Part shown: positions 17,035 through 59,614 of the stretch, piece by piece
How the letters are laid out: each line of letters opens with the position of its first letter
Numbering within the stretch: the first letter of the stretch is position 1
NCBI RefSeq assembly: GCF_050920415.1
Contig: NZ_CP169309.1
Origin: Escherichia coli
Lineage (GTDB): Bacteria; Pseudomonadota; Gammaproteobacteria; Enterobacterales; Enterobacteriaceae
DNA length: 64,000 nucleotides
Reading direction: 5' to 3' (one strand)
The notes under the pieces: model-generated
What the model saw: only the letters and a program-made list of their open reading frames with translations
Told to the model about the DNA's origin: nothing
The model's database searches: none
Position numbers and translations under genes: made by a program

Positions 17035-17632
17035 TCTGCTGCCACCGGGTTCAACTTCACTGGAGCGCCGACTGGCGCAAACCTGTAGCGGGATTTCTGA
17101 TCTGCAGGTGCCGCTGCGTGACTTGTGGAATCCGGCTACCTGTCCGGTCAGCTTCCTGCCTTATCTCGCCTGGGCGTTCTCTGTGGATCGCTGGGACGAG
17201 GGCTGGACAGAAAGCGTCAAACGCCAGGTAGTGAAGGATGCTTTTTATATTCATCAGCATAAAGGAACTACCAGTGCCGTGCGGCGGGTGGTGGAACCGT
17301 TCGGATTCCTGATCCGCATTATTGAGTGGTGGCAGACCGGAGAAACACCGGGCACGTTTCGCCTGGATATCGGCGTGCAGGACCAGGGCATCACTGAAGA
17401 TACCTATCTGGAACTTGAGCGGCTGATAAGCGATGCCAAACCATGTAGCCGTCACATGATCGGCATGTCCATCAATCTGCAGACCAGCGGTCCGCATTGG
17501 GTGGGGGCCGCCAGCTATCTTGGCGAAGAAATCACGATCTATCCGTATATCAACGAAACAATTATTTCCGGCGGCACCGCGCATGAAGGCGGGGCGGTCC
17601 ATGTTATTGACACAATGAGAGTGAATCCATGA
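17027..17632 (+). CDS. baseplate protein I (P2 gpI-like)
   Basis: 201 aa, overlaps J stop and H start. Confidence 0.8.
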   Translation: MNSLLPPGSTSLERRLAQTCSGISDLQVPLRDLWNPATCPVSFLPYLAWAFSVDRWDEGWTESVKRQVVKDAFYIHQHKGTTSAVRRVVEPFGFLIRIIEWWQTGETPGTFRLDIGVQDQGITEDTYLELERLISDAKPCSRHMIGMSINLQTSGPHWVGAASYLGEEITIYPYINETIISGGTAHEGGAVHVIDTMRVNP

Positions 17633-19026
17633 GCACAAAATTTTATACCCTGCTGACGGATATTGGCGCGGCGAAACTTGCCAGCGCCGCCGCGCTCGGT
17701 GTGCCGCTAAAAATTACCCATATGGCGGTGGGCGATGGCGGCGGAACATTGCCAACGCCGGACGCCAAGCAGACAGCATTGGTAAATGAGAAACGCCGGG
17801 CTGCGCTGAATATGCTCTATATCGACCCGCAGAACAGCAGCCAGATTATTGCTGAACAGGTGATCCCTGAAAACGAGGGCGGTTGGTGGATACGTGAAGT
17901 GGGCCTGTTTGATGAGTCCGGGGCATTGATTGCCGTGGGCAACTGCCCGGAAAGCTATAAGCCGCAACTGGCTGAAGGCAGCGGGCGTACCCAGACCGTG
18001 CGCATGGTGCTGATTACCAGCAGCACGGACAATATCACCCTGAAAATCGACCCTGCCGTAGTGCTGGCAACCCGCAAGTATGTGGATGACAAGGTACTGG
18101 AGCTGAAGGTGTACGTGGATGATCAGATGGCAAAACATCTTGCCGCACCGGACCCGCATTCACAGTATGCACCCAAAGAAAGTCCGACGTTTACCGGGAC
18201 ACCAAAAGCGCCAACTCCAGCGGCAGGGAATAACACCACGCAGGTTGCGACCACCGCGTTTGTTCAGGCGGCACTGACGGCTCTTATTAATGGTGCGCCA
18301 GCCACGCTGGACACGCTGAAAGAAATAGCCGCAGCCATTAACAATGATCCGAATTTCAGTACCACCATTAACAATGCGCTGGCACTGAAAGCGCCGTTGT
18401 CGAGTCCGGCACTCACCGGAACGCCAACAGCCCCCACTGCTGCACAGTCGGTCAACAATACACAGATTGCCACCACGGCTTTTGTGAAATCGGCGATTGC
18501 AGCAATGGTAGGTTCTGCACCTGCGGCACTGGATACACTGAACGAACTGGCGTCGGCGTTGGGGAATGATCCGAACTTTGCCACGACAATGCTTAATGCG
18601 CTGGCAGGTAAACAACCGCTGGACAATACGCTGACTAATTTGAGTGGAAAGGATGTCGCTGGTCTTCTCGCATACCTTGGTTTGGGGGAATTGGCTCTGG
18701 CTGGCGCAACAACCGGCGCTATGTTGGTGAATGGGTATGTAGCAATTCCATTAATTATTTCTGGCGTTCGGAGACCACTTATTATCCAGTGGGGAGTGGG
18801 GCAGTTTGGGGGAAGTCTGGGGGATGATGCGGGATATTTAAACAATTTCCCTTTCGCTTTTCCGTCGGCGTGCTACGTGATGGTTGCCAGCCACGTGGGG
18901 CATACACCTTCGGGTGCCGGAATACTATCTGCTTCCGCAATCACAAAAAGCGGCTTTCGTGGTTTTTCCAGCGTAGTGACTGCCGCAAATCCTGTATCGG
19001 GCTGTTATGTTGCTATAGGAGGGTGA
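17629..19026 (+). CDS. tail fibre protein H; C-terminal 112 codons lie inside an invertible segment
   Basis: 465 aa; conserved N-terminus (MSTKFYTLLTDIGAAK...); internal tandem repeats; recombination site within codons LLAYLGLGE. Confidence 0.85.
   Translation: MSTKFYTLLTDIGAAKLASAAALGVPLKITHMAVGDGGGTLPTPDAKQTALVNEKRRAALNMLYIDPQNSSQIIAEQVIPENEGGWWIREVGLFDESGALIAVGNCPESYKPQLAEGSGRTQTVRMVLITSSTDNITLKIDPAVVLATRKYVDDKVLELKVYVDDQMAKHLAAPDPHSQYAPKESPTFTGTPKAPTPAAGNNTTQVATTAFVQAALTALINGAPATLDTLKEIAAAINNDPNFSTTINNALALKAPLSSPALTGTPTAPTAAQSVNNTQIATTAFVKSAIAAMVGSAPAALDTLNELASALGNDPNFATTMLNALAGKQPLDNTLTNLSGKDVAGLLAYLGLGELALAGATTGAMLVNGYVAIPLIISGVRRPLIIQWGVGQFGGSLGDDAGYLNNFPFAFPSACYVMVASHVGHTPSGAGILSASAITKSGFRGFSSVVTAANPVSGCYVAIGG
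18181..18624 (+). repeat. two tandem ~222 bp (74 aa) repeats within tail fibre gene
   Basis: SPTFTGTPKAP...NDPNFSTT and SPALTGTPTAP...NDPNFATT segments are clearly homologous. Confidence 0.6.
18665..18690. repeat. Hin/Gin-type recombination crossover site (left, inside H)
   Basis: ttctcgcatacc-tt-ggtttgggggaa: imperfect 26 bp palindrome matching hix/gix-like sites; inverted copy at 20480-20505. Confidence 0.55.
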
Positions 19027-19027
19027 T

Positions 19028-19462
19028 GTGTTTTTTAGTCCATCTTTAAATATTTTTGTGAATCCTGCGCTTAAGGATGACTACATCAATGTAAATTCAT
19101 GGCCAGATGATGCTGTTGAAGTTGATGAGCAGGTGTATATTGAGTTTTCCGGATTACCGCCGAAAGGAAAAATCCGTATCGCTGGGGAAAATGGTTTTCC
19201 TGCATGGTCTGAAATTCCACCACCAACGCATGAGGAACAGATTGCCGCAGCCGAATTGAAAAAACAGCAATTGATTAATCAGTCCAACGAATATATGAAT
19301 ACCAAGCAATGGCCTGGTAAAGCGGCTATTGGTCGTCTGAAAGGTGAGGAACTGGCGCAATATAATTTGTGGCTGGATTATCTGGACGCACTGGAACTGG
19401 TTGATACCTCCAGTGCTCCAGATATTGAATGGCCTACGCCTCCGGCAGTTCAGGCCAGATGA
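19028..19462 (+). CDS. tail fibre assembly chaperone (P2 gpG-like), active orientation
   Basis: 144 aa directly after H stop. Confidence 0.8.
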   Translation: MFFSPSLNIFVNPALKDDYINVNSWPDDAVEVDEQVYIEFSGLPPKGKIRIAGENGFPAWSEIPPPTHEEQIAAAELKKQQLINQSNEYMNTKQWPGKAAIGRLKGEELAQYNLWLDYLDALELVDTSSAPDIEWPTPPAVQAR

Positions 19463-20027
19463 CATCCGGCGCGGTGCTCGTATCTGTTGCCGTCACCGCG
19501 TCAATGTAATCAAGCACGGCGTTAAGCCGGGTGGTTTCTGCCTGCGTCAGCTTCCGCCCGGCCTGTAATTTCAGCTGAATCAGACTGATGGAAGCCATTG
19601 CAGCATCAATCAGTGACTGGCGCTGTGCTTCTGCCGCTTCTACTGCGGCACCGTGTTGTGCCTCAGTATCTGTCACCCATTTCTCACCATCCCATTTATC
19701 GTATGGCGTTAACGGTGAAAGCGTGACATAACCGTCTTTGATGGCACCGATATAATCCACTGTAACAGCAGCACCATTTTCGATTGAGTAAACAGTCTCA
19801 TTGCGATGGTCTTCTTCATGGCTCCATCCCTTACCTGTAAATACTGCCACTCTTCCCGGAATGTTTTCGCCAGGGTCAATACCAGTTGAACAGGCGGGCA
19901 TACTTACGCCAGTATTAATATATTCATCAGACCAGCCCGTATACTCAGATGTTTCAGCATCATAATAAAAACAACGCATATCACCCGGCACTGTAGCCAG
20001 CCCATTTTCATCAAAAACAGGTTTCAT
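19434..20027 (-). CDS. alternative tail fibre assembly chaperone (for inverted orientation)
   Basis: 197 aa minus-strand ORF inside invertible segment; C-terminus resembles the + strand chaperone (DYIDAV/LDYLDAL, IWPELP/IEWPTP). Confidence 0.75.
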   Translation of the reverse strand: MKPVFDENGLATVPGDMRCFYYDAETSEYTGWSDEYINTGVSMPACSTGIDPGENIPGRVAVFTGKGWSHEEDHRNETVYSIENGAAVTVDYIGAIKDGYVTLSPLTPYDKWDGEKWVTDTEAQHGAAVEAAEAQRQSLIDAAMASISLIQLKLQAGRKLTQAETTRLNAVLDYIDAVTATDTSTAPDVIWPELPEA

Positions 20028-20492
20028 TATGCAGCCCTCACAATATAATTAAAGGCGATGTTACGTGGACGGTTTTCATTAGCTGTTGGCACGACACGAG
20101 AGGCGTCGAATCCAAGGTCATCGGTTTTGTCTATAGTAGTTGTGTTATTCGGCATTCTCGCTGATCGTGTTCCTGCATCGTAAAAAGCCCCTCTGATTGC
20201 ATCAAAAGACATACCGATCCCGCCATCTGCGAATCCCTCAATATTTCTTATTGCATCCCCCTGTGAAGATAATAATTGTCGCCCGGCATCCACTCCACGT
20301 CCGTCATCCCAGCCACGAATAAATTCACCGCGTAAATCAGGCAATTTATTTTTCGGATAAACCTTTGCCAGTTCCGGGTATTCTTCAGCAGAAAAAGCCG
20401 CACCGTTGCATTTCAGCCAGCCAGTAGGCGGTGTGGCTGAAGGCCACGGAACAGGCACACCAACGGGTAATGCTGAACCTTCTCCCAAACCA
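20027..20492 (-). CDS. alternative tail fibre C-terminal cassette (promoterless; expressed only after inversion)
   Basis: Minus-strand frame open through right crossover site; contains Mu S'/P1-type fibre tip motif LPDLRGEFIRGWDDGRGVDAGR. Confidence 0.7.
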
Positions 20493-20505
20493 ACGTTTAT
20501 GAAAA
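20480..20505. repeat. Hin/Gin-type recombination crossover site (right)
   Basis: ttctcccaaacc-aa-cgtttatgaaaa; inverted relative to site at 18665-18690; 55 bp upstream of invertase gene. Confidence 0.55.
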
Positions 20506-20560
20506 TGCAGAGATAACGGCTAACTGGCATCATCTCCGGTTTTTATTCAGGGGGATGATC

Positions 20561-21127
20561 ATGCTTATTGGCTATGTACGCGTGTCAACAAATGACCAGA
20601 ACACCGATTTGCAACGTAATGCACTGAACTGCGCGGGATGTGAGCGGATTTTTGAGGATAAAATCAGTGGCACTAAGTCCGACAGACCGGGGCTGAAAAA
20701 GCTGCTCAGGACACTATCGGCAGGAGACACGCTGGTTGTCTGGAAGCTGGACAGGTTGGGGCGCAGTATGCGGCATCTTGTTACGCTGATAGAGGAGTTG
20801 CGCCAGCGTGGTGTGAATTTCCGAAGCCTGACTGACAGTATTGATACCAGTACCCCAATGGGCCGTTTCTTTTTTCATGTCATGGGTGCCCTGGCTGAAA
20901 TGGAACGCGAACTGATAGTTGAACGTACCAGGGCAGGGCTGGCTGCAGCTCGTGCCAAAGGCAGAGTAGGTGGACGCCGTCCTAAGTTGACCACCGAACA
21001 GTGGGCACAGATTGGGCGTTTACTCGAGGCCGGAGAATCAAGACAGCGTATTGCACTGATTTTTGATGTGGGTGTTTCCACAATTTATAGAAAATTTCCG
21101 GCAAATAAGAGTAATGAATCCCCCTGA
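20561..21127 (+). CDS. site-specific DNA invertase, serine recombinase (Hin/Gin/Cin/Pin family)
   Basis: N-terminus MLIGYVRVSTNDQNTDLQRNAL with catalytic Ser; resolvase fold plus C-terminal HTH (GVSTIYRKF). Confidence 0.85.
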   Translation: MLIGYVRVSTNDQNTDLQRNALNCAGCERIFEDKISGTKSDRPGLKKLLRTLSAGDTLVVWKLDRLGRSMRHLVTLIEELRQRGVNFRSLTDSIDTSTPMGRFFFHVMGALAEMERELIVERTRAGLAAARAKGRVGGRRPKLTTEQWAQIGRLLEAGESRQRIALIFDVGVSTIYRKFPANKSNESP

Positions 21128-22451: not shown

Positions 22452-22967
22452 ATGGCTTTACCACGCAAATTAAAACATCTGAACCTGTTTAACGACGGGA
22501 ACAACTGGCAGGGGATCGTTGAGTCGCTGACGCTGCCGAAATTCACCCGCAAATATGAGAAGTATCGCGGCGGCGGAATGCCGGGTGCAGTGGATGTGGA
22601 TCTGGGGCTTGATGACAGTGCGCTGGACACAGAATTTTCCATTGGTGGTACTGAACTGCTGCTGTTTAAGCAGATGGGCAAAGCCACGGTAGATGGCATT
22701 CAGCTGCGCTTTACCGGCTCTATCCAGCGTGACGATACCGGGGAAGTGCAGGCCGTGGAGCTTGTGGTGCGTGGACGTCACAAAGAAGTGGATTCCGGCG
22801 AGTGGAAGACGGGCGAAAGCAACACCACCAAAGTGACCAGTACCAACAGCTACGCGAAGCTGACCATCAATGGTGAGGTGCTCTATGAAGTGGACCTTAT
22901 CAACATGGTGGAAATTGTGGACGGTGTGGACCTGATGGAAGCGCACCGCAACGCCCTCGGCCTCTGA
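22452..22967 (+). CDS. tail tube protein (P2 gpFII-like)
   Basis: 171 aa, P2 FII-like. Confidence 0.9.
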   Translation: MALPRKLKHLNLFNDGNNWQGIVESLTLPKFTRKYEKYRGGGMPGAVDVDLGLDDSALDTEFSIGGTELLLFKQMGKATVDGIQLRFTGSIQRDDTGEVQAVELVVRGRHKEVDSGEWKTGESNTTKVTSTNSYAKLTINGEVLYEVDLINMVEIVDGVDLMEAHRNALGL

Positions 22968-23021
22968 TGTATCTGAACGGCGCGGGATACCGCGCCAGAA
23001 CCCAATTTACAGGACAGCAAA

Positions 23022-23324
23022 ATGAGCGATAAGCAGACTGAAAAGACTATTCAACTGGATACCCCCATCAAGCGCGGTAAAACAGAAATCACCGAAATTG
23101 TGCTGCGTAAACCGCAGTCCGGTGCGCTGCGCGGTACACGCCTGCAGGCCATTATGGATATGGATGTGAACGCGATGATGACCGTGATCCCCCGTATCTC
23201 CAGTCCGGCACTGACTGCACAGGAAATTGCAGAGATGGACCCGGCAGATCTCACTGCCATGTCGGTTGAGGTTGTCACTTTTTTGTTGAAGAAGTCGGTG
23301 CTTGCCGGTTTACCGACAGCCTGA
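23022..23324 (+). CDS. tail assembly chaperone E (P2 gpE-like); E+E' extension by -1 frameshift would end at 23457
   Basis: 100 aa; slippery T-TTT-TTG near 3' end; -1 frame stays open to TGA at 23455-23457. Confidence 0.8.
   Translation: MSDKQTEKTIQLDTPIKRGKTEITEIVLRKPQSGALRGTRLQAIMDMDVNAMMTVIPRISSPALTAQEIAEMDPADLTAMSVEVVTFLLKKSVLAGLPTA
23279..23285 (+). promoter_or_regulatory. programmed -1 ribosomal frameshift slippery heptamer (E/E')
   Basis: T TTT TTG in zero frame of E; downstream -1 frame encodes ~57 further aa overlapping tape-measure start. Confidence 0.5.
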
Positions 23325-23450
23325 CGGTTGACGATCTGGTGGCTGATATCGCCACCATCTTTCACTGGCCGCCATCCGTTACTGACGTTATGCCGCTGAC
23401 CGAAGTGCTGGAATGGCGGTATAAAGCGATTCAGAGAAGCGGGGCCAACG

Positions 23451-26400
23451 ATGAGTGATAACAACCTGCGGCTGCAGGTCATTCTTAATGCGGTTGACAA
23501 ACTCACCCGCCCATTCCGTGTTGCACAGGCCAGTTCGAAAGAGCTGGCTGGCGCAATTCAGAATACCCGAAACAGCCTCAAAGAACTGAATAAGCAGGCT
23601 GGCAGAATTGATGAATTTCGCAAGACGCGCTCGCAACTAGCCATAACAGCCAACAACCTGAACGCAGCCCGCGAAGAGGCGGCAAAACTCGCCACACAAT
23701 TTGCTGCCACTAACAGGCCAACCGCCGCGCAGGCAAAGTTATTCAGTCAGGCCAAAACACGAGTACAGGAACTTCAGCAGACCTATAACGGCTTGTTGGG
23801 GGCGGTCCAGAGACAACGTCAGGCACTTAAAGAATCAGGGATTGATACCAGACAACTCAGTAGTGCCCAGCGAGAACTTAAGAAAAATGCTGAAGAAACA
23901 AGGCAGGCACTGGAGGGCCAGCAAAAAGCACTTAAACGTCTGGGTGAACAACAGTCACGGATGAACGCTGCCAGAGAACAATACTCAAGACGGCTTGAAG
24001 TGCGCGATCGCATCGCAGGAGCCGGAGCCACTACCACGGCTGCAGGGCTGGCAATGGGTGCGCCAGTGATGGCAGCAGTAAAAAGCTATACCAGCATGGA
24101 AGATGCCATGAAAGGTGTGGCAAAGCAGGTCAATGGTCTGCGTGATGATAATGGCAACCGCACTGCGCGTTTTTACGAAATGCAGGATGCCATCAAGGCT
24201 GCCAGCGAACAGTTGCCGATGGAAAACGGTGCTGTGGACTTTGCCGCACTGGTTGAAGGTGGTGCGCGCATGAACGTCGCAAATCCTGACGACAGCTGGG
24301 AAGACCAGAAACGTGACCTGCTGGCCTTCGCCAGCACGGCAGCAAAGGCGGCAACAGCCTTTGAGCTGCCAGCGGATGAACTGTCAGAAAGTCTGGGGAA
24401 AATCGCCCAGCTCTACAAAATCCCTACCCGCAATATTGAACAGCTCGGTGATGCGCTGAACTATCTGGATGATAACGCCATGTCGAAAGGGTCAGACATC
24501 ATTGATGTCATGCAACGCCTGGGCGGTGTGGCAGATCGTCTGGATTATCGTAAAGCGGCGGCGCTGGGTTCCACCTTCCTGACACTGGGCGCTGCGCCGG
24601 AGGTTGCTGCCAGTGCAGCAAACGCGATGGTGCGTGAATTGTCCATTGCCACCATGCAAAGTAAGAGTTTCTTTGAAGGGATGAATCTGCTGAAACTCAA
24701 TCCTGAAGTGATTGAAAAGCAGATGACGAAGGATGCGATGGGAACTATCCAGCGTGTGCTGGAGAAGGTGAACGCACTGCCGCAGGACAAGCGTCTGTCT
24801 GCCATGACCATGTTGTTTGGTAAAGAGTTTGGTGATGATGCAGCGAAACTGGCAAACAACCTTCCGGAACTGCAGCGCCAGCTAAAACTGACAGCGGGCA
24901 ATGATGCGCTCGGTTCCATGCAGAAAGAATCCGACATCAACAAAGACTCACTTTCCGCTCAGTGGTTGCTGGTCAAAACCGGAGCGCAGAACACCTTCAG
25001 CAGCCTGGGCGAAACGCTGCGCCAGCCGCTGATGGATATTCTGTACACGGTGAAAAGCATCACGGGGGCGTTGCGCCGCTGGGTGGAAGCTAACCCGGAA
25101 CTGACAGGCACACTGATGAAAGTAGCGGCTGTTGTGGCTGCGGTTACCGTAGGCCTCGGCACCTTAGCGGTGGCGCTGGCTGCAGTGCTGGGGCCGCTGG
25201 CAGTCATCCGTCTGGGATTCTCTGTGCTGGGTATCAAAACGTTACCTTCCGTTACGGCAGCAGTAACACGAACCAGCAGCGCGTTGTCCTGGTTAGCTGG
25301 CGCTCCACTGGCACTGCTGCGACGCGGGCTTGCTTCATCGGGCAACGCAGCGGGTTTACTTACTGCGCCGTTGTCGTCTTTGCGCCGCACCGCATCACTG
25401 ACGGGGAATGTCCTGAAAACTGTAGCAGGTGTGCCGGTTGCACTGTTGCGGTCTGGATTATCCGGTTTACGTGCGGTTGCTGTGATGTTTATGAATCCAC
25501 TGGCAGCACTACGCGGTGGACTGGCTGCCGCAGGCGCGGTGCTGCGTGTGCTGGCATCCGATCCGCTGGCGATGCTGCGCGTTGCCCTGTATGCCGTATC
25601 TGGTCTGTTAGGTGCTCTGCTCAGTCCGATAGGTCTTGTGGTTACTGCACTGGCGGGCGTGGCGCTGGTTGTCTGGAAATACTGGCAACCCATCACCGCA
25701 TTTCTCGGTGGCGTGGTGGAAGGATTCAAAGCGGCGGCAGGTCCCATCAGTGCTGCATTCGAACCGCTTAAGCCCGTGTTCCAGTGGATTGGCGACAAAG
25801 TACAGGCGTTGTGGGGCTGGTTTACTGATCTGCTGACGCCTGTTAAGTCGACCTCTGCCGAACTGCAGAGCGCAGCGGCAATGGGGCGACGATTCGGGGA
25901 GGCACTGGCGGAAGGGCTGAATATGGTCATGCATCCGTTGGACTCCCTGAAATCCGGCGTTTCCTGGTTGCTGGAGAAACTCGGTATTGTCAGTAAAGAG
26001 GCTGCAAAGGCGAAACTGCCGGAAAGCGTGACGCGTCAGCAACCTGCGACGGTGAATGCAGACGGTAAAGTGATGATGCCATCGGGTGGTTTTCCGTCAT
26101 GGGGATATGGCTTTGCGGGGATGTATGACAGCGGCGGCTATATCCCGCGCGGGCAGTTCGGCATTGTCGGTGAAAACGGGCCTGAAATTGTCAACGGTCC
26201 GGCAAACGTGACCAGTCGGAGAAATACAGCTGCACTGGCTGCCGTTGTTGCCGGAATGATGGGCGTTGCTGCCGCGCCTGCAGAGCTTCCGCCGTTACAT
26301 CCTTTGGCACTTCCCGCGAAAGGCGGCGAAGCGATGGTGAGTCGTGCAGCCACTGTGCCGCCCGCTCAACGGATTGAGGCACCGACGCAGATCATCATCC

Positions 26401-26528
26401 AGACGCAGCCAGGACAAAGTGCGCAGGATATTGCGCGGGAGGTGGCACGCCAGCTTGATGAACGTGAACGCAGGCTGAAGGCAAAAGCCAGGAGTAACTA
26501 CAGCGATCAGGGGGGATACGACGCATGA
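23451..26528 (+). CDS. tail tape measure protein (P2 gpT-like), 1025 aa
   Basis: Long alpha-helical-type protein with central hydrophobic Ala/Leu-rich block; position between E and U. Confidence 0.85.
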   Translation: MSDNNLRLQVILNAVDKLTRPFRVAQASSKELAGAIQNTRNSLKELNKQAGRIDEFRKTRSQLAITANNLNAAREEAAKLATQFAATNRPTAAQAKLFSQAKTRVQELQQTYNGLLGAVQRQRQALKESGIDTRQLSSAQRELKKNAEETRQALEGQQKALKRLGEQQSRMNAAREQYSRRLEVRDRIAGAGATTTAAGLAMGAPVMAAVKSYTSMEDAMKGVAKQVNGLRDDNGNRTARFYEMQDAIKAASEQLPMENGAVDFAALVEGGARMNVANPDDSWEDQKRDLLAFASTAAKAATAFELPADELSESLGKIAQLYKIPTRNIEQLGDALNYLDDNAMSKGSDIIDVMQRLGGVADRLDYRKAAALGSTFLTLGAAPEVAASAANAMVRELSIATMQSKSFFEGMNLLKLNPEVIEKQMTKDAMGTIQRVLEKVNALPQDKRLSAMTMLFGKEFGDDAAKLANNLPELQRQLKLTAGNDALGSMQKESDINKDSLSAQWLLVKTGAQNTFSSLGETLRQPLMDILYTVKSITGALRRWVEANPELTGTLMKVAAVVAAVTVGLGTLAVALAAVLGPLAVIRLGFSVLGIKTLPSVTAAVTRTSSALSWLAGAPLALLRRGLASSGNAAGLLTAPLSSLRRTASLTGNVLKTVAGVPVALLRSGLSGLRAVAVMFMNPLAALRGGLAAAGAVLRVLASDPLAMLRVALYAVSGLLGALLSPIGLVVTALAGVALVVWKYWQPITAFLGGVVEGFKAAAGPISAAFEPLKPVFQWIGDKVQALWGWFTDLLTPVKSTSAELQSAAAMGRRFGEALAEGLNMVMHPLDSLKSGVSWLLEKLGIVSKEAAKAKLPESVTRQQPATVNADGKVMMPSGGFPSWGYGFAGMYDSGGYIPRGQFGIVGENGPEIVNGPANVTSRRNTAALAAVVAGMMGVAAAPAELPPLHPLALPAKGGEAMVSRAATVPPAQRIEAPTQIIIQTQPGQSAQDIAREVARQLDERERRLKAKARSNYSDQGGYDA

Positions 26529-27010: not shown

Positions 27011-28107
27011 ATTTCAGCTCTGAACTGCTTAACAAAGGCAACAAAACTCCCGCATTCAGCATCAGTATTGAGGGCAGGGATATCACCACTGTGCTGGATA
27101 ACCGCCTGATGAGTTTGACGCTGACGGACAATCGGGGCTTTGAAGCAGACCAGCTTGATCTGGAGCTGGACGACGCCGACGGAAAAATCGTGCTGCCGCG
27201 CCGTGGTGCGGTTATTACGCTGGCGCTGGGCTGGAAGGGGCAGCCGCTTTTCCCGAAAGGGGCATTCACGGTGGACGAGATTGAACACACTGGCGCACCG
27301 GACCGCCTGACTATCCGGGCGCGAAGTGCTGATTTTCGTGAAACGCTGAATACCCGCCGTGAAAAGTCGTGGCACAAGACCACCGTTGGGGAAGTGGTGA
27401 AGGAAATAGCTGCACGGCACAAACTGAAGATGGCATTGGGTAAAGACCTGTCAGATAAACCCGTGGAACATATAGACCAGACCAATGAGAGTGACGGCAG
27501 TTTTCTGATGCGACTGGCGCGCCAGTACGGTGCTATTGCGTCGGTGAAAAATGGCAATCTGTTATTCATCCGGCAGGGACAGGGCAAAAGCGCCAGCGGT
27601 AAACCACTGCCGGTGATCACTATCACGCGTAAGGACGGCGACAGTCACCGCTTTACCCTGGCAGATCGCGGAGCCTATACGGGCGTCATTGCCAGCTGGT
27701 TGCATACCCGCGAACCCGCGAAGAAAGAAAGCACCACGGTGAAGCGTAAGCGCAGAACTAAGAAGCAGAAGAAAGAGCCGGAAGCGAAGCAGGGCGATTA
27801 TCTGGTGGGGACGGATGAAAACGTGCTGGTACTTAATCGCACTTATGCCAACCGGAGCAACGCCGAACGAGCGGCGAAAATGCAGTGGGAACGCCTGCAA
27901 CGCGGTGTTGCGTCATTCTCGCTACAACTGGCGGAAGGTCGGGCAGATCTCTACACGGAAATGCCTGTGAAGGTCAGTGGCTTTAAACAGCCAATAGATG
28001 ATGCGGAATGGACCATTACGACTCTGACACATACCGTCAGCCCGGATAACGGTTTTACGACCAGTATTGAACTTGAAGTGAAAATTGGTGATCTTGAAAT
28101 GGAATAA
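27007..28107 (+). CDS. tail protein D (P2 late control gene D-like)
   Basis: 366 aa, P2 D-like. Confidence 0.85.
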   Translation: MNFSSELLNKGNKTPAFSISIEGRDITTVLDNRLMSLTLTDNRGFEADQLDLELDDADGKIVLPRRGAVITLALGWKGQPLFPKGAFTVDEIEHTGAPDRLTIRARSADFRETLNTRREKSWHKTTVGEVVKEIAARHKLKMALGKDLSDKPVEHIDQTNESDGSFLMRLARQYGAIASVKNGNLLFIRQGQGKSASGKPLPVITITRKDGDSHRFTLADRGAYTGVIASWLHTREPAKKESTTVKRKRRTKKQKKEPEAKQGDYLVGTDENVLVLNRTYANRSNAERAAKMQWERLQRGVASFSLQLAEGRADLYTEMPVKVSGFKQPIDDAEWTITTLTHTVSPDNGFTTSIELEVKIGDLEME

Positions 28108-28175
28108 ATGGTTCTCAATATTGGTATTTTGTGTATCATTGCAATGATTCTGATAGCAAAGGTAGGGATCTGGAT

Positions 28176-28394
28176 ATGATGAATTGTCCAAAGTGTGGTC
28201 ATGCGGCGCACACAAGGAGCAGTTTTCAAGTAACAGAAAGCACCAAAGAGCGTTACTGCCAGTGCCAAAATATTAACTGCGGGAGCACTTTTGTTACCCA
28301 TGAAACAGTGGTCCGGTTTATTGTGACACCTGCAGTGATTGCCACAGCCCCTCCACATCCATTGCCAGGTGGTCAGGGCCATATGAATTTTTAA
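28176..28394 (+). CDS. ogr: Ogr/Delta zinc-finger late transcription activator
   Basis: MMNCPKCGHAAHTRSS...ERYCQCQNINCGSTF: C-x2-C...C-x4-C pattern of Ogr; 72 aa from ATG 28176. Confidence 0.8.
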   Translation: MMNCPKCGHAAHTRSSFQVTESTKERYCQCQNINCGSTFVTHETVVRFIVTPAVIATAPPHPLPGGQGHMNF

Positions 28395-28420
28395 GAAAGA
28401 GAACCTGCTACGGCAGGTTT

Positions 28421-28903
28421 TTATTCATCTGGGATCTCACCCGTTTCAAGAAAATGTATAAAGCCAGGCTCATCTATGATGATAGTGCCTTTCATCCTGG
28501 CTGCCGATACTTTTGATGGGCCTGCATTGTAACCGCAACAGAGCATCTGAAGGTTTTGGGTTACAGATGTTCTTACCGTTAATCCTTGTTCATTCGCCTT
28601 ATCAACCAACCTTTCTTTATCTGCTTTCTTAAATCCGGTGAAACACACATCGAATGTATTTTTTTTCGGACCTGACTGCTTAGTGAGATGTGAGTAGTTT
28701 TCGGGGAGGAATGACGCGCATTCCTGAATGGCTTGTTCTTGTGAATCGTATTGTTTAAGAATGCGGTCTTTTCGGAAGGTTTTTATTCGATCGGTGTTCT
28801 TACAAATGCCCTGTATGTGATTTTCGCTATAACTGATGCTCTGTATTGAGTGAACACCGATACGACCATTTGCATTGATGTAAACAAAGTGAAGTTCTTC
28901 CAT
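28421..28903 (-). CDS. orphan protein with N-terminal WYL-like region and C-terminal BRCT-like domain (160 aa)
   Basis: R-x-F-R-x-D-R-I signature (IKTFRKDRI) in N-half; C-half FDVCFTGF...CCGYNAGPSKVSAARMKGTIIIDEPGF fits BRCT pattern; AT-rich; between ogr and ssrA. Confidence 0.5.
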   Translation of the reverse strand: MEELHFVYINANGRIGVHSIQSISYSENHIQGICKNTDRIKTFRKDRILKQYDSQEQAIQECASFLPENYSHLTKQSGPKKNTFDVCFTGFKKADKERLVDKANEQGLTVRTSVTQNLQMLCCGYNAGPSKVSAARMKGTIIIDEPGFIHFLETGEIPDE

Positions 28904-28989
28904 GTCAAACCTCTTTGCATGATTTCAAGATGGCGACAGGCAAGATGGACGCAAAAGTCTGTCGCCATTTTGCCGCCACTACCTAAGAA

Positions 28990-29026
28990 AAAGGGGCTAC
29001 GCTTTCACGTAACCCCTTGATTTATT
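28990..29026 (-). terminator. ssrA transcription terminator
   Basis: On minus strand ggggttacg-tgaaag-cgtagcccc hairpin followed by ttttt, directly after tmRNA 3' end. Confidence 0.5.
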
Positions 29027-29389
29027 TGGTGGAGCTGGCGGGAGTTGAACCCGCGTCCGAAATTCCTACATCCTCGGTACTACATGCTTAGTCAGTCTTT
29101 ACATTCGCTTGCCAGCTGCGGACGGACACGCCACTAACAAACTAGCCTGATTAAGTTTTAACGCTTCAACCCCAGGCAGGGCTTCCACGCGATCTCTTTT
29201 GGGTTTGACCTCTCTTGATCCCCGTCCTAAGAGCGGAGGCTAGGGAGAGAGGGCTCTAAGCAGGTTATTAAGCTGCTAAAGCGTAGTTTTCGTCGTTTGC
29301 GACTATTTTTTGCGGCTTTTTACGAGGCCAACCGCCCCTCGGCATGCACCTTGGGTTTCGCAAATCCCGTCGAATCCAGAATCAGCCCC
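29027..29389 (-). ncRNA. ssrA: tmRNA (SsrA), 363 nt
   Basis: Reverse complement matches E. coli tmRNA from GGGGCUGAUUCUGG 5' end to GCCAGCUCCACCA 3' end, including tag-encoding region. Confidence 0.95.
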
Positions 29390-47126: not shown

Positions 47127-47153
47127 AGTGTTGCCTTTTTGTTATCAATAAAA

Positions 47154-47178
47154 AAGGCCCCCCGGTTTGGGAGGCCTT
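47154..47178 (-). terminator. pheA attenuator terminator
   Basis: On minus strand aaggcctccc-aaac-cggggggcctttttt between pheL and pheA. Confidence 0.6.
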
Positions 47179-47223
47179 ATTGTTCGTCTTCGCATTCTGT
47201 TTCACACGACGAAACGCCTCCCA

Positions 47224-47271
47224 TTCAGGGGAAGGTAAAAAAGAATGCGAAGAAAAACGGTGTGTGTTTCA
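47224..47271 (-). CDS. pheL: pheA leader peptide
   Basis: Minus strand ATG AAA CAC ACA CCG TTT TTC TTC GCA TTC TTT TTT ACC TTC CCC TGA = MKHTPFFFAFFFTFP. Confidence 0.85.
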
Positions 47272-47326
47272 TGTTTGTTTCCTTAAGTGACTTTAGTACA
47301 GTACCCGTACTGTTTTCACGCTGTCA

Positions 47327-51390: not shown

Positions 51391-51451
51391 CCTAAAGAAT
51401 CAAGACGATCCGGTACGCGTGATTTTCTTTTCACATTAATCTGGTCAATAA

Positions 51452-51482
51452 CCTTGAATAATTGAGGGATGACCTCATTTAA
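51452..51482 (+). promoter_or_regulatory. sigma32 heat-shock promoter of clpB
   Basis: CCTTGAA -35 and GACCTCATTTA -10-like element ~40 bp upstream of clpB. Confidence 0.5.
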
Positions 51483-51519
51483 TCTCCAGTAGCAACTTTG
51501 ATCCGTTATGGGAGGAGTT

Positions 51520-54093
51520 ATGCGTCTGGATCGTCTTACTAATAAATTCCAGCTTGCTCTTGCCGATGCCCAATCACTTGCACTCGGGCACGACAACCAA
51601 TTCATCGAACCACTTCATTTAATGAGCGCCCTGCTGAATCAGGAAGGGGGTTCGGTTAGTCCTTTATTAACATCCGCCGGCATCAATGCTGGTCAGTTGC
51701 GCACAGATATCAATCAGGCATTAAATCGTTTACCGCAGGTTGAAGGCACTGGTGGCGATGTCCAGCCCTCACAGGATCTGGTGCGCGTTCTTAATCTTTG
51801 CGACAAGCTGGCGCAAAAACGTGGTGATAACTTTATCTCGTCAGAACTGTTCGTTCTGGCGGCACTTGAGTCTCGCGGCACGCTGGCCGACATCCTGAAA
51901 GCAGCAGGGGCGACCACCGCCAACATTACTCAAGCGATTGAACAAATGCGTGGAGGTGAAAGCGTGAACGATCAAGGAGCTGAAGACCAACGTCAGGCTT
52001 TGAAAAAATACACTATCGACCTCACCGAACGAGCCGAACAAGGCAAACTCGATCCGGTGATTGGCCGTGATGAAGAAATTCGCCGTACCATTCAGGTACT
52101 GCAACGTCGTACTAAAAATAACCCGGTGCTGATTGGTGAACCAGGCGTTGGTAAAACAGCCATCGTTGAAGGTCTGGCTCAGCGTATTATCAATGGCGAA
52201 GTACCGGAAGGGCTGAAAGGCCGCCGCGTACTGGCGCTGGATATGGGCGCGCTGGTGGCCGGGGCGAAATATCGCGGTGAGTTTGAAGAACGTTTAAAAG
52301 GCGTGCTTAACGATCTCGCCAAACAGGAAGGCAACGTCATCCTGTTTATCGACGAATTACATACCATGGTCGGTGCGGGTAAAGCCGATGGCGCAATGGA
52401 TGCCGGCAACATGCTGAAACCGGCGCTGGCGCGTGGTGAATTGCACTGCGTAGGTGCCACGACGCTTGACGAATATCGCCAGTACATCGAAAAAGATGCT
52501 GCGCTGGAACGTCGTTTCCAGAAAGTGTTTGTTGCCGAGCCTTCTGTTGAAGACACCATTGCTATTCTGCGTGGCCTGAAAGAACGTTACGAACTGCACC
52601 ACCATGTGCAAATTACTGACCCGGCAATTGTTGCAGCGGCGACGTTGTCTCATCGCTACATTGCTGACCGTCAGTTGCCGGATAAAGCCATCGACCTGAT
52701 CGATGAAGCAGCATCCAGCATTCGTATGCAGATTGACTCAAAACCAGAAGAACTCGACCGACTCGATCGTCGTATCATCCAGCTCAAACTGGAACAACAG
52801 GCGTTAATGAAAGAGTCTGATGAAGCCAGTAAAAAACGCCTGGATATGCTCAACGAAGAACTGAGCGACAAAGAACGTCAGTATTCCGAGTTAGAAGAAG
52901 AGTGGAAAGCTGAGAAAGCGTCGCTTTCTGGTACGCAGACCATTAAAGCGGAACTGGAACAGGCGAAAATCGCCATTGAACAGGCTCGCCGTGTGGGTGA
53001 TCTGGCGCGGATGTCTGAACTGCAATATGGCAAAATTCCAGAACTGGAAAAGCAACTGGAAGCCGCAACGCAGCTCGAAGGCAAAACTATGCGTCTCTTG
53101 CGTAATAAAGTGACCGACGCCGAAATTGCTGAAGTGCTGGCGCGTTGGACGGGGATTCCGGTTTCTCGCATGATGGAAAGCGAGCGCGAAAAACTGCTGC
53201 GTATGGAGCAAGAACTGCACCATCGCGTTATTGGTCAGAACGAAGCGGTTGATGCGGTATCTAACGCTATTCGTCGTAGCCGTGCGGGGCTTGCGGATCC
53301 AAATCGCCCGATTGGTTCATTCCTGTTCCTTGGCCCAACTGGTGTGGGTAAAACTGAGCTTTGTAAGGCGCTGGCGAACTTTATGTTTGATAGCGACGAG
53401 GCGATGGTCCGTATCGATATGTCCGAGTTTATGGAGAAACACTCGGTGTCTCGTCTGGTTGGTGCGCCTCCGGGATATGTCGGTTATGAAGAAGGTGGCT
53501 ACCTGACCGAAGCGGTGCGTCGTCGTCCGTATTCCGTCATCCTGCTGGATGAAGTGGAAAAAGCGCATCCGGATGTCTTCAACATTCTGTTGCAGGTACT
53601 GGATGATGGACGTCTGACTGACGGGCAGGGGAGAACGGTCGACTTCCGTAATACGGTTGTCATTATGACCTCTAACCTAGGTTCCGATTTGATTCAGGAA
53701 CGCTTCGGTGAACTGGATTATGCGCACATGAAAGAGCTGGTACTCGGTGTGGTAAGCCATAACTTCCGTCCGGAATTCATTAACCGTATCGATGAAGTGG
53801 TGGTCTTCCATCCGCTGGGTGAACAGCACATTGCGTCGATTGCGCAGATTCAGTTGAAACGTCTGTACAAACGTCTGGAAGAACGTGGTTATGAAATCCA
53901 CATTTCTGACGAGGCGCTGAAACTGCTGAGCGAGAACGGTTACGATCCGGTCTATGGTGCACGTCCTCTGAAACGTGCTATCCAGCAGCAGATCGAAAAC
54001 CCGCTGGCACAGCAAATACTGTCTGGTGAATTGGTTCCGGGTAAAGTTATTCGCCTGGAAGTTAATGAAGACAGGATTGTCGCCGTCCAGTAA
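51520..54093 (+). CDS. clpB: disaggregase chaperone ClpB
   Basis: 857 aa from ATG 51520 ([11 protein letters not shown]); two AAA+ modules. Confidence 0.95.
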
Positions 54094-54535: not shown

Positions 54536-56070
<1,535 letters not shown>

Positions 56071-56242
56071 CCTTAAAGAACTGTTCTTTGCAGTGCTCAC
56101 ACAGATTGTCTGATGAAAAGTGAATAGCAAGGCGTTTACGCGTTGGGAGTGAGGCTGAAGAGAATAAGGCCGTTCGCTTTCTGTTAATGAAAGCTCACCC
56201 TACACGAAAATATCACGCAGCGCGTGATAAGCAATTTTCGTG

Positions 56243-56318
56243 TCCCCTTCGTCTAGAGGCCCAGGACACCGCCCTTTCACGGCGGTAACAGGGGTTCGAA
56301 TCCCCTAGGGGACGCCAC
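56243..56318 (+). tRNA. gltW: tRNA-Glu (UUC) in 16S-23S spacer
   Basis: gtccccttcgtctagaggcccaggacaccgccctttcacggcggtaacaggggttcgaatcccctaggggacgcca. Confidence 0.95.
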
Positions 56319-56501
56319 TTGCTGGTTTGTGAGTGAAAGTCGCCGACCTTGATATCGTTAAAGATGACTTACGAGTCATGTTTAAGATATTTGCTCTTTA
56401 AAAATCTGGATCAAGCTGAAAATTGAAACACTGAACAACGAAAGTTGTTCGTGAGTCTCTCAAATTTTCGCAATCAGAAGTGAAACATCTTCGGGTTGTG
56501 A

Positions 56502-59401
<2,900 letters not shown>

Positions 59402-59494
59402 ACAACGCCGAAGATGTTTTGGCGGATTGAGAGAAGATTTTCAGCCTGATACAGATTAAATCAGAACGCAGAAGCGGTCTGATGAAACAGAATT

Positions 59495-59614
59495 TGCCTG
59501 GCGGCCTTAGCGCGGTGGTCCCACCTGACCCCATGCCGAACTCAGAAGTGAAACGCCGTAGCGCCGATGGTAGTGTGGGGTCTCCCCATGCGAGAGTAGG
59601 GAACTGCCAGGCAT
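59495..59614 (+). rRNA. rrf: 5S ribosomal RNA
   Basis: TGCCTGGCGGCC...GGAACTGCCAGGCAT, 120 nt. Confidence 0.95.

What the first reader, a model, noticed from the sequence alone, without database searches (positions are those of the whole stretch)
23022..23457. Conserved E/E' programmed -1 frameshift site
The heptamer T-TTT-TTG lies in the zero frame of gene E and the -1 frame stays open for ~57 codons until a TGA that overlaps the tape-measure start codon. This is the arrangement expected for the tail-chaperone frameshift product of P2-like and lambda-like (G/GT) phages.
Basis: partly seen in the sequence, partly recalled or inferred. Interest (0 to 1): 0.3.

Follow-up and report, generated by a model that had tools for sequence, protein, structure and literature searches.

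The report
P2-type tail-chaperone E/E′ frameshift site
This is the well-known programmed −1 ribosomal frameshift that lets P2-like phages make two tail-assembly chaperones (E and E+E′) from one gene, here in a Fels-2/Cartapus-type prophage of E. coli; it is real but ordinary.

Summary
Gene E (23022-23324, 100 aa) carries T_TTT_TTG at 23279-23285 in its zero frame. The −1 frame is open from 23270 to a TGA at 23456-23458, one base beyond the reported end. That makes 57 new-frame codons. The TGA lies 2 nt after the tape-measure ATG (23451), giving an 8-nt overlap, ATGAGTGA, exactly as in P2.

The heptamer and the open frame alone are weak evidence, but homology is decisive:
- The zero frame is Pfam Phage_TAC_7 (1e-18) and the −1 frame is Phage_P2_GpE (5e-19).
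- The deduced 145-aa fusion aligns without gaps to P2 E+E′ across the junction (49% identity, 4e-51).
- In all 101 related loci examined, E′ homology (21 diverse loci) or a long open −1 frame (80 close loci) follows E, with an in-frame X_XXY_YYZ heptamer at the same place.
- Substitutions switch from zero-frame to −1-frame third positions.
- Six of 18 diverse sequences examined (17 relatives plus the window) have no start codon for a stand-alone E′.

No conserved downstream hairpin or significant upstream SD-like element was found. The DNA is 100% identical to phage Cartapus and occurs in 998 of 5426 complete E. coli genomes. Databases annotate E′ as a separate 39-aa ORF there. Already known; low interest.

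The parts
22452..22967 (+). Tail tube gene FII, immediately upstream of E
   Evidence: Pfam Phage_tube 8.8e-60; annotated as major tail tube protein in identical or related records.
23022..23324 (+). Gene E: zero-frame tail assembly chaperone, 100 aa, stop TGA 23322-23324
   Evidence: ORF and translation; Pfam PF10109 Phage_TAC_7 1e-18; PHROG 103 tail protein 4e-44; 43% identical to P2 gpE by tblastn.
23279..23285 (+). Slippery heptamer T_TTT_TTG (X_XXY_YYZ) in the E frame, codons 86(3rd base)-88
   Evidence: Sequence. Same heptamer at the homologous position in P2, L-413C, Fels-2, KS14, Dobby, RSA1, ENT90, BEK, FSL SP-004, KSP20, Milagro and others, and in 79 of 80 IMG/VR relatives. P2 record marks this site as the -1 frameshift.
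23270..23458 (+). -1 frame open reading frame E' (62 codons, stop TGA 23456-23458). It has no credible initiation site of its own.
   Evidence: Translation; Pfam PF06528 Phage_P2_GpE 5e-19. Variable columns concentrate at -1-frame third positions downstream of the E stop (7/4/17). The annotated GTG has an anti-SD duplex of -3.0 kcal/mol, equal to background.
23022..23458 (+). Deduced E+E' frameshift product: join(23022..23285, 23285..23458), 145 aa, junction ...VVTFL|VEEVG...
   Evidence: 49% identity over 139 aa without gaps to P2 E+E', E = 4e-51. AlphaFold2 model has pLDDT 90.5 and pTM 0.81, with helix 74-92 running through the junction.
23339..23458 (+). 39-aa ORF that GenBank/RefSeq annotate as a stand-alone 'GpE family phage tail protein' (GTG start); most likely an annotation artefact of the unrecognised frameshift
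   Evidence: Cartapus CARTA_27 and RefSeq WP_000763311.1 map here. E' homology to P2 starts 18 codons upstream of this GTG. The equivalent codon is not a start codon in 6 of 18 diverse sequences.
23451..26528 (+). Tape measure gene T; its ATG overlaps the end of E' by 8 nt (ATGAGTGA)
   Evidence: ORF; Pfam PhageMin_Tail 1.4e-18; same 8-nt overlap in P2.

Best explanation
This is the orthologue of the bacteriophage P2 E/E+E' recoding site, in a Fels-2/Cartapus-type (Peduoviridae) prophage of E. coli inserted next to ssrA.

Mechanism:
- Most ribosomes translate gene E to its stop at 23322-23324 and make the 100-aa tail assembly chaperone gpE.
- A minority slip one base backwards on U_UUU_UUG (23279-23285). 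The P-site tRNA-Phe re-pairs from UUU to UUU, and the A-site tRNA-Leu re-pairs from UUG to UUU.
- These ribosomes continue for 57 codons in the -1 frame and terminate at 23456-23458, just inside the tape-measure gene. The product is a 145-aa E+E' protein with the gpE N-terminus and a new C-terminal domain.
- By analogy with lambda gpG/gpGT, the shared E part binds the tape-measure protein T. The E' part recruits the tube protein, and the slippage frequency fixes the E : E+E' ratio needed for tail assembly.

Shown here: the sequence anatomy, homology in both frames, conservation of heptamer and frame, purifying selection in the -1 frame, and the absence of an independent start in relatives.
Inferred: that the shift occurs in this phage, its frequency, the exact junction residue, and the binding partners.
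For: - Anatomy.
- Zero frame is PF10109 (1e-18) and -1 frame is PF06528 (5e-19).
- Gene order sheath, tube, E/E', tape measure, U, D.
- tblastn of the fusion finds 424 phage records, 269 of them covering 80% or more of the query in two pieces.
- In all 21 fetched loci (Peduovirus, Felsduovirus and about 14 other Peduoviridae genera, plus Vhmlvirus) the E' homology is in frame E minus 1.
- An in-frame X_XXY_YYZ heptamer sits at the homologous codon in all 21 (16 are T_TTT_TTG) and in all 80 IMG/VR loci.
- Relatives that lack the T run have other canonical tandem-slip heptamers (G_GGA_AAG, C_CCT_TTC, A_AAT_TTT). That fits ribosomal, not transcriptional, slippage.
- Gap-free alignment to P2 E+E' through the junction.
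- Codon-position switch of substitutions, 18/8/51 in the zero frame upstream and 7/4/17 in the -1 frame downstream.
- No start codon between the slip site and the conserved AD[IVL] motif in 6 of 18 diverse sequences, and background-level SD in the window.
- P2, L-413C, KS14, Smp131 and Milagro records annotate the joined CDS; the Fels-2 record notes the slippage.
- Literature: in P2 the -1 shift at TTTTTTG gives the 91-aa E and 142-aa E+E' (PMC3091744 and PMC3931495, citing Christie 2002, PMID 12426340, and Xu 2004, PMID 15469818). Lambda G/GT mechanism: PMC5009743.
Against: - No direct evidence (protein, reporter, ribosome profiling) exists for this phage.
- The primary P2 paper could not be read here. 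My recollection of about 10% efficiency and of the essentiality of E' is unverified.
- No stimulatory element was found. Downstream folds are not better than shuffles (window z = -0.33 over 55 nt) and are not shared among relatives. The upstream GAGGU is no better than 8.9% of background windows. Efficiency therefore rests on the heptamer alone, as reported for P2.
Confidence: 0.93

Rival explanations
1. E' is an independent small gene. It would be a 39-aa peptide started at GTG 23339, as GenBank and RefSeq annotate it, either by direct initiation or by re-initiation after the E stop 15 nt upstream. No frameshift would be involved.
For: - Cartapus, RE-2010, SopEPhi, Dobby, BEK and RefSeq PGAP all annotate a separate 'GpE family' CDS.
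- A GTG or ATG lies at this position in 12 of 18 diverse sequences.
- Pfam PF06528 spans only these 37 residues.
Against: - The anti-SD duplex upstream of GTG 23339 is -3.0 kcal/mol. The background mean is -3.3, and most neighbouring tail genes (FI, FII, T, U, D) have -7 to -11.5, although gene E's own ATG scores only -4.0.
- In 6 of 18 diverse sequences the aligned codon is GCC, ATT, GTT, ATC, TGG or ATT, and no ATG/GTG/TTG lies anywhere between the slip site and the conserved motif.
- Amino-acid conservation with P2 continues 18 codons upstream of the GTG, right to the heptamer.
- The -1 frame opens only 3 codons before the heptamer, both here and in P2.
- P2 E' is reported to lack a ribosome binding site and to be made as an extension of E (PMC3931495, citing Christie 2002).
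Confidence: 0.03
2. The frame change is made at the RNA level. RNA polymerase would stutter on the T6 run and add one extra U to a fraction of transcripts, which are then translated normally into E+E'. The junction would read ...TFFVEEVG....
For: - The site is a homopolymer run of six T, or seven T in Smp131 and ST11-VIM1phi8.4.
- A one-base insertion would give the same downstream frame.
- The tools used here cannot separate the two routes.
Against: - Relatives with the same gene arrangement use G_GGA_AAG, C_CCT_TTC or A_AAT_TTT. These have no long homopolymer but obey the tandem tRNA-slippage rule and are phased with the zero frame.
- The run is held at 6-7 T in all T-run loci (96 of 101) and never reaches the 8-9 or more that, from my knowledge of bacterial transcriptional slippage, is usually needed.
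- The heptamer phase relative to the E frame is invariant, which matters for ribosomes but not for RNA polymerase.
- The literature treats it as translational (PMC3091744, PMC3931495).
Confidence: 0.03
3. Chance coincidence: a T-rich heptamer and a fortuitously open alternative frame with no function.
For: TTTTTTG occurs 35 times in the window, and 7% of coding positions are followed by 59 or more open -1 codons.
Against: - Pfam E = 5e-19 for the -1 peptide.
- Heptamer, phase and open frame are conserved in 101 of 101 related loci across many genera.
- Substitution pattern is that of a coding -1 frame.
- Confident fold of the fusion.
Confidence: 0.01

Closest known systems
Bacteriophage P2 genes E and E+E' (FETUD tail operon; Christie et al. 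2002, PMID 12426340)
   Same: - Same position between FII and T.
- Same heptamer T_TTT_TTG at the homologous codon.
- Same -1 direction.
- The -1 frame opens 9 nt before the heptamer in both.
- Same 8-nt overlap of E' with T (ATGnnTGA).
- Fusion products are 145 vs 142 aa, 49% identical with no gaps.
- No downstream hairpin in either (PMC3091744).
   Different: - E is 100 aa here vs 91 aa in P2. The zero-frame tail after the slip site is 12 vs 6 residues and is unrelated.
- The sequence has diverged: 43% identity in E and 56% in E'.
- The frameshift has not been demonstrated experimentally for this phage.
Fels-2 / SopEPhi / RE-2010 (Felsduovirus) and Escherichia phage Cartapus (Elveevirus) E and E' genes
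   Same: - 100% nucleotide identity to Cartapus and 85-86% to Fels-2 over 22950-23520.
- Identical heptamer and frame layout.
- The Fels-2 record already notes that gpE+E' forms by translational slippage.
   Different: Nothing of substance. Cartapus and RefSeq E. coli records annotate two separate CDSs and no frameshift.
Phage lambda G/GT tail assembly chaperone frameshift (Levin 1993; Xu, Hendrix, Duda 2004, 2013, 2014)
   Same: - Same logic: a chaperone gene between the major tail gene and the tape measure gene.
- A -1 slip near its 3' end on an X_XXY_YYZ heptamer.
- A minor fusion product whose ratio to the short product matters for assembly (PMC5009743).
- The Mannheimia relative of E even uses lambda's heptamer G_GGA_AAG.
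   Different: - No detectable sequence similarity, and a different heptamer.
- This is a contractile-tail (myovirus) rather than a siphovirus context.
- The partner of the E' domain is inferred, not shown.

Membership tests
P2 gpE / gpE+E' tail assembly chaperone pair with programmed -1 frameshift | Gene lies between the tail tube gene (FII) and the tape measure gene (T) in an FI-FII-E-T-U-D operon | tested here: met
   Pfam: sheath 21270, tube 22452, PhageMin_Tail 23451, GpU 26525, GPD 27007.
P2 gpE / gpE+E' tail assembly chaperone pair with programmed -1 frameshift | Zero-frame product homologous to gpE (Pfam PF10109 Phage_TAC_7) | tested here: met
   E = 1e-18, 67.5 bits against a cutoff of 25; tblastn to P2 E gives 43% identity, E = 6e-21.
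P2 gpE / gpE+E' tail assembly chaperone pair with programmed -1 frameshift | -1 frame downstream encodes the E' domain (Pfam PF06528 Phage_P2_GpE) | tested here: met
   E = 5e-19, 67.9 bits against a cutoff of 23; 56% identity to P2 E' over all 57 residues.
P2 gpE / gpE+E' tail assembly chaperone pair with programmed -1 frameshift | In-frame X_XXY_YYZ slippery heptamer (T_TTT_TTG in P2) at the homologous codon, inside the zero/-1 overlap | tested here: met
   23279-23285, aligned with the P2 site; P2 site annotated in NC_001895.
P2 gpE / gpE+E' tail assembly chaperone pair with programmed -1 frameshift | E' has no translation start of its own | tested here: met
   Background-level SD at the only candidate GTG. 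Homology extends upstream of that GTG. No start codon at all in 6 of 18 diverse sequences.
P2 gpE / gpE+E' tail assembly chaperone pair with programmed -1 frameshift | E' terminates at the start of T (overlap ATGnnTGA) | tested here: met
   Stop at 23456-23458 against ATG 23451; identical in P2.
P2 gpE / gpE+E' tail assembly chaperone pair with programmed -1 frameshift | A fusion protein is actually produced at a set low frequency and is essential for tail assembly | not testable with these tools
   Needs protein or reporter data. Reported for P2 only (Christie 2002, quoted in PMC3091744 and PMC3931495).
Lambda-type G/GT tail assembly chaperones (Phage_TACs superfamily) | Shared chaperone fold with solved TACs (HK97 2ob9 and the like) | tested here: inconclusive
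Lambda-type G/GT tail assembly chaperones (Phage_TACs superfamily) | Sequence similarity to lambda gpG/gpGT | not tested
   Reported absent in the literature (PMC3931495). Only the working principle is claimed, not family membership at sequence level.
-1 PRF sites with an RNA stimulator (dnaX-type: upstream SD-like element plus downstream hairpin) | Conserved downstream stem-loop 5-9 nt after the heptamer | tested here: not met
   The window's 55-nt fold has z = -0.33. The 19 sequences folded (window plus 18 relatives) range from z = -1.85 to +1.32 with no common structure. An 80-nt fold gave z = -2.1 but its pairs are broken in close relatives.
-1 PRF sites with an RNA stimulator (dnaX-type: upstream SD-like element plus downstream hairpin) | Upstream Shine-Dalgarno-like element stronger than background | tested here: not met
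   GAGGU at 23268-23272 gives -6.8 kcal/mol; 8.9% of 18-nt windows in the late operon do as well.

The most novel reading that the evidence does not exclude
The most novel reading not excluded is that the GAGGU/AAGGUG motif 6-7 nt upstream of the heptamer is a selected anti-SD pairing site that tunes slippage frequency. The Glu codon there is GAG in all 38 distinct close variants, while neighbouring third positions vary freely. P2 and FSL SP-004 have AAGGUG at the same place. Alternatively, part of the E+E' yield could come from transcriptional slippage on the T6 run. Either would add a regulatory layer to a site thought to depend on the heptamer alone.
Probability: 0.08. Interest if true: 0.3.

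Novelty: already known. Interest (0 to 1): 0.1.

Why it matters
Biologically it matters only in the ordinary way: without E+E′ a P2-type phage cannot build tails, and the slip frequency sets the chaperone ratio.

The practical point concerns annotation. This exact segment is present in 998 of 5426 complete E. coli genomes and in phage Cartapus. In the records listed for it, E′ is called as a free-standing 39-aa 'GpE family phage tail protein' rather than as a ribosomal-slippage join. Proteomic databases therefore lack the true 145-aa product. Nothing here opens a new question.

Tried and rejected
1. Downstream stimulatory RNA structure. An 80-nt fold looked mildly stable (z = -2.1), and one candidate 6-bp stem starts 8 nt after the heptamer. 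However, the 55-nt folds of the 19 sequences (window plus 18 relatives) show no shared hairpin and ordinary z-scores. Single substitutions in close relatives break pairs of the longer hairpin. Rejected; this agrees with the literature for P2 and the Burkholderia phages (PMC3091744).
2. Upstream SD-like stimulator: not above background.
3. Independent initiation of E': rejected.
5. NCBIfam has no model matching E or the fusion.
6. The primary paper (Christie 2002) could not be read by DOI or PMC id. Its content is taken second-hand from PMC3091744 and PMC3931495.
7. att repeats of the prophage were not found, because the window begins inside the prophage.
8. The IMG/VR scan returned only close relatives (72-97% identity), so it added depth but not breadth.
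Full report
**What is in the sequence.**
- Gene E runs from ATG 23022 to TGA 23322-23324 and encodes 100 aa.
- The string TTTTTTG occupies 23279-23285. In the E frame it reads ACT TTT TTG, which is a canonical X_XXY_YYZ heptamer.
- The -1 frame has a stop at 23267-23269. It is open from 23270 and closes at TGA 23456-23458.
- Two small corrections apply. The stop ends at 23458, not 23457. It lies two bases after the tape-measure ATG (23451-23453) rather than on it, so E' and T overlap by 8 nt (ATGAGTGA).
- The +1 frame is full of stops.

**Is it more than chance?** Taken alone, only just.
- TTTTTTG occurs 35 times in the window, against 18 expected.
- About 7% of zero-frame positions inside long ORFs of this window are followed by 59 or more open -1 codons.

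The decisive evidence is homology and conservation.
- The zero-frame protein is Pfam Phage_TAC_7 (1e-18). The -1 peptide is Phage_P2_GpE (5e-19).
- PHROGs gives the same picture.
- Neighbouring genes are sheath, tube (FII), tape measure, GpU and GpD, which is the P2 FI-FII-E-T-U-D operon.

**Relatives.**
- The 571 bases around the site are 100% identical to Escherichia phage Cartapus (Peduoviridae, Elveevirus). Cartapus is prophage 4 of E. coli LF82 (PMC9928086). The segment is 85-86% identical to Fels-2 and its kin.
- tblastn with the deduced fusion finds 424 phage records. In 269 of them two pieces together cover at least 80% of the query.
- I fetched 21 loci spanning P2, L-413C, Fels-2, SopEPhi, RE-2010, and Burkholderia, Ralstonia, Pseudomonas, Stenotrophomonas, Mannheimia, Erwinia, Serratia, Klebsiella, Citrobacter and Vibrio phages, plus a skin metagenome phage.
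- In all 21 the E' homology lies in the frame one base behind E.
- All 21 carry an in-frame X_XXY_YYZ heptamer at the homologous place. Sixteen have T_TTT_TTG, two T_TTT_TTC and one T_TTT_TTT. One each has G_GGA_AAG, C_CCT_TTC and A_AAT_TTT.
- Eighty further IMG/VR loci (72-97% identity) have T_TTT_TTG (79) or T_TTT_TTA (1), with 59-61 open -1 codons.

**Comparison with P2.**
- The P2 record annotates E (91 aa), the joined E+E' CDS, and a 'site of -1 translational frameshift' at the base after the same heptamer.
- The window's 145-aa fusion aligns with P2 E+E' (142 aa) at 49% identity over 139 residues. There is no gap and the alignment runs straight through the junction (FLV in both).
- In both phages the -1 frame opens 9 nt before the heptamer, and E' overlaps T by 8 nt.

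**The -1 frame is translated, and only as an extension of E.**
- Among the window and four relatives, variable columns in the E-only part fall 18/8/51 on zero-frame codon positions 1/2/3.
- Downstream of the E stop they fall 7/4/17 on -1-frame positions. Purifying selection switches frame.
- GenBank and RefSeq records mostly call a separate 39-aa ORF from GTG 23339. Four results argue against that ORF:
  - The GTG has a background-level anti-SD duplex of -3.0 kcal/mol. The background mean is -3.3. Most neighbouring tail genes (FI, FII, T, U, D) have -7 to -11.5, although gene E's own ATG scores only -4.0.
  - Homology to P2 begins 18 codons upstream of it.
  - In 6 of 18 diverse sequences there is no ATG, GTG or TTG anywhere between the slip site and the conserved AD[IVL] motif.
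  - An AlphaFold2 model of the fusion is confident (pLDDT 90.5, pTM 0.81), and a single helix (residues 74-92) runs through the junction.

**Mechanism.**
- The best explanation is tandem -1 ribosomal slippage on U_UUU_UUG. It gives a minor E+E' product alongside the major E product.
- By analogy with lambda G/GT, both bind the tape-measure protein through the shared part, and the extension recruits the tube protein (PMC5009743).
- Published accounts say that in P2 the shift at TTTTTTG yields the 91-aa and 142-aa proteins. They also say the arrangement is conserved among P2-like phages (PMC3091744, PMC3931495, citing Christie 2002 and Xu 2004).
- From memory, and unverified here because the paper is not held, the P2 frequency is about 10% and E' is essential.
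- I found no stimulatory RNA element. Folds of the 55 nt downstream are not better than shuffles (window z = -0.33) and share no structure across the 19 sequences folded, the window plus 18 relatives. The upstream GAGGU is no stronger than 8.9% of background windows.
- Transcriptional slippage on the T6 run cannot be excluded by computation. It is disfavoured because relatives with no homopolymer run use other phased tandem-slip heptamers. In the T-run loci (96 of 101) the run never exceeds 7 T.

**Fold.**
- No solved structure matches by sequence profile or by Foldseek.
- Only 2ob9 is labelled a tail assembly chaperone. The other two are deposited as uncharacterised proteins, and their identification as chaperone-like is from my memory.
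- This gives weak support that E works like the lambda-type chaperones.

**Context and verdict.**
- The window is E. coli chromosome. The prophage abuts ssrA (tmRNA 29027-29389), followed by smpB, recN, grpE, ffh, trmD and an rrn operon.
- The E/E' segment occurs in 998 of 5426 complete E. coli genomes.
- Its only practical value is to show that current annotations of this very common prophage omit the frameshift product.

Noticed in passing
window 17629-21127: There is a probable invertible host-range segment. A Gin/Cin-type serine invertase lies at 20555-21127 (+) (Pfam Resolvase + HTH_7). It sits beside two sets of tail-fibre and fibre-assembly ORFs in opposite orientation: 17629-19026 and 19028-19462 (+), against 19434-20027 and 20027-20533 (-). 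These are flanked by a 26-nt imperfect inverted repeat, 18665-18690 / 20480-20505. RefSeq relatives label these fibre genes 'frameshifted' or 'partial'.
   Followed up: partly
window 23339-23458: Public annotation (phage Cartapus CARTA_27, RefSeq WP_000763311.1) and Pfam PF06528 treat the last 37-39 residues of E' as a stand-alone protein. The frameshift join is annotated only in a minority of P2-like records: P2, L-413C, KS14, Smp131 and Milagro.
   Followed up: yes
window 28100-29389: The prophage ends next to ssrA (tmRNA, 29027-29389, minus strand). A 160-aa ORF of unknown function lies on the minus strand (28421-28903), in the stretch between gene D (ends 28107) and ssrA. The related RefSeq record also has an ogr/Delta-like zinc-finger gene in this stretch; it was not located in window coordinates. 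The window begins inside the prophage, so the other att site is not present.
   Followed up: partly
window 26510-26528: An in-frame G_GGG_GGA heptamer lies 5 codons before the end of T, and gene U is in the -1 frame. This looks like an ordinary ATGA stop/start overlap (T stop 26526-26528, U ATG 26525) rather than recoding.
   Followed up: partly
window, whole: TTTTTTG is about twice as frequent as dinucleotide shuffles predict: 35 observed against 18.2 expected, with 0 of 100 shuffles reaching 35. Whether the other copies are followed by a long or homologous -1 ORF was checked only for in-frame heptamers inside ORFs of at least 150 aa; no TTTTTTG appeared among those with 40 or more open -1 codons.
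   Followed up: partly
window 23268-23272: GAGGU lies 6 nt upstream of the slippery heptamer. The Glu codon is GAG in all 38 distinct close variants, although flanking third positions vary. P2 and FSL SP-004 have AAGGUG at the same spot. Its anti-SD pairing energy is not above background, so this may simply be codon or phylogenetic inertia.
   Followed up: partly
window 47148-47273, 51401-51539, 54536-59612: Ordinary host RNA features were found by Rfam: the Phe leader, the RyfD sRNA upstream of an 861-aa ORF (51508-54093; probably clpB, from memory, not checked), and an rrn operon with tRNA-Glu in the spacer.
   Followed up: no
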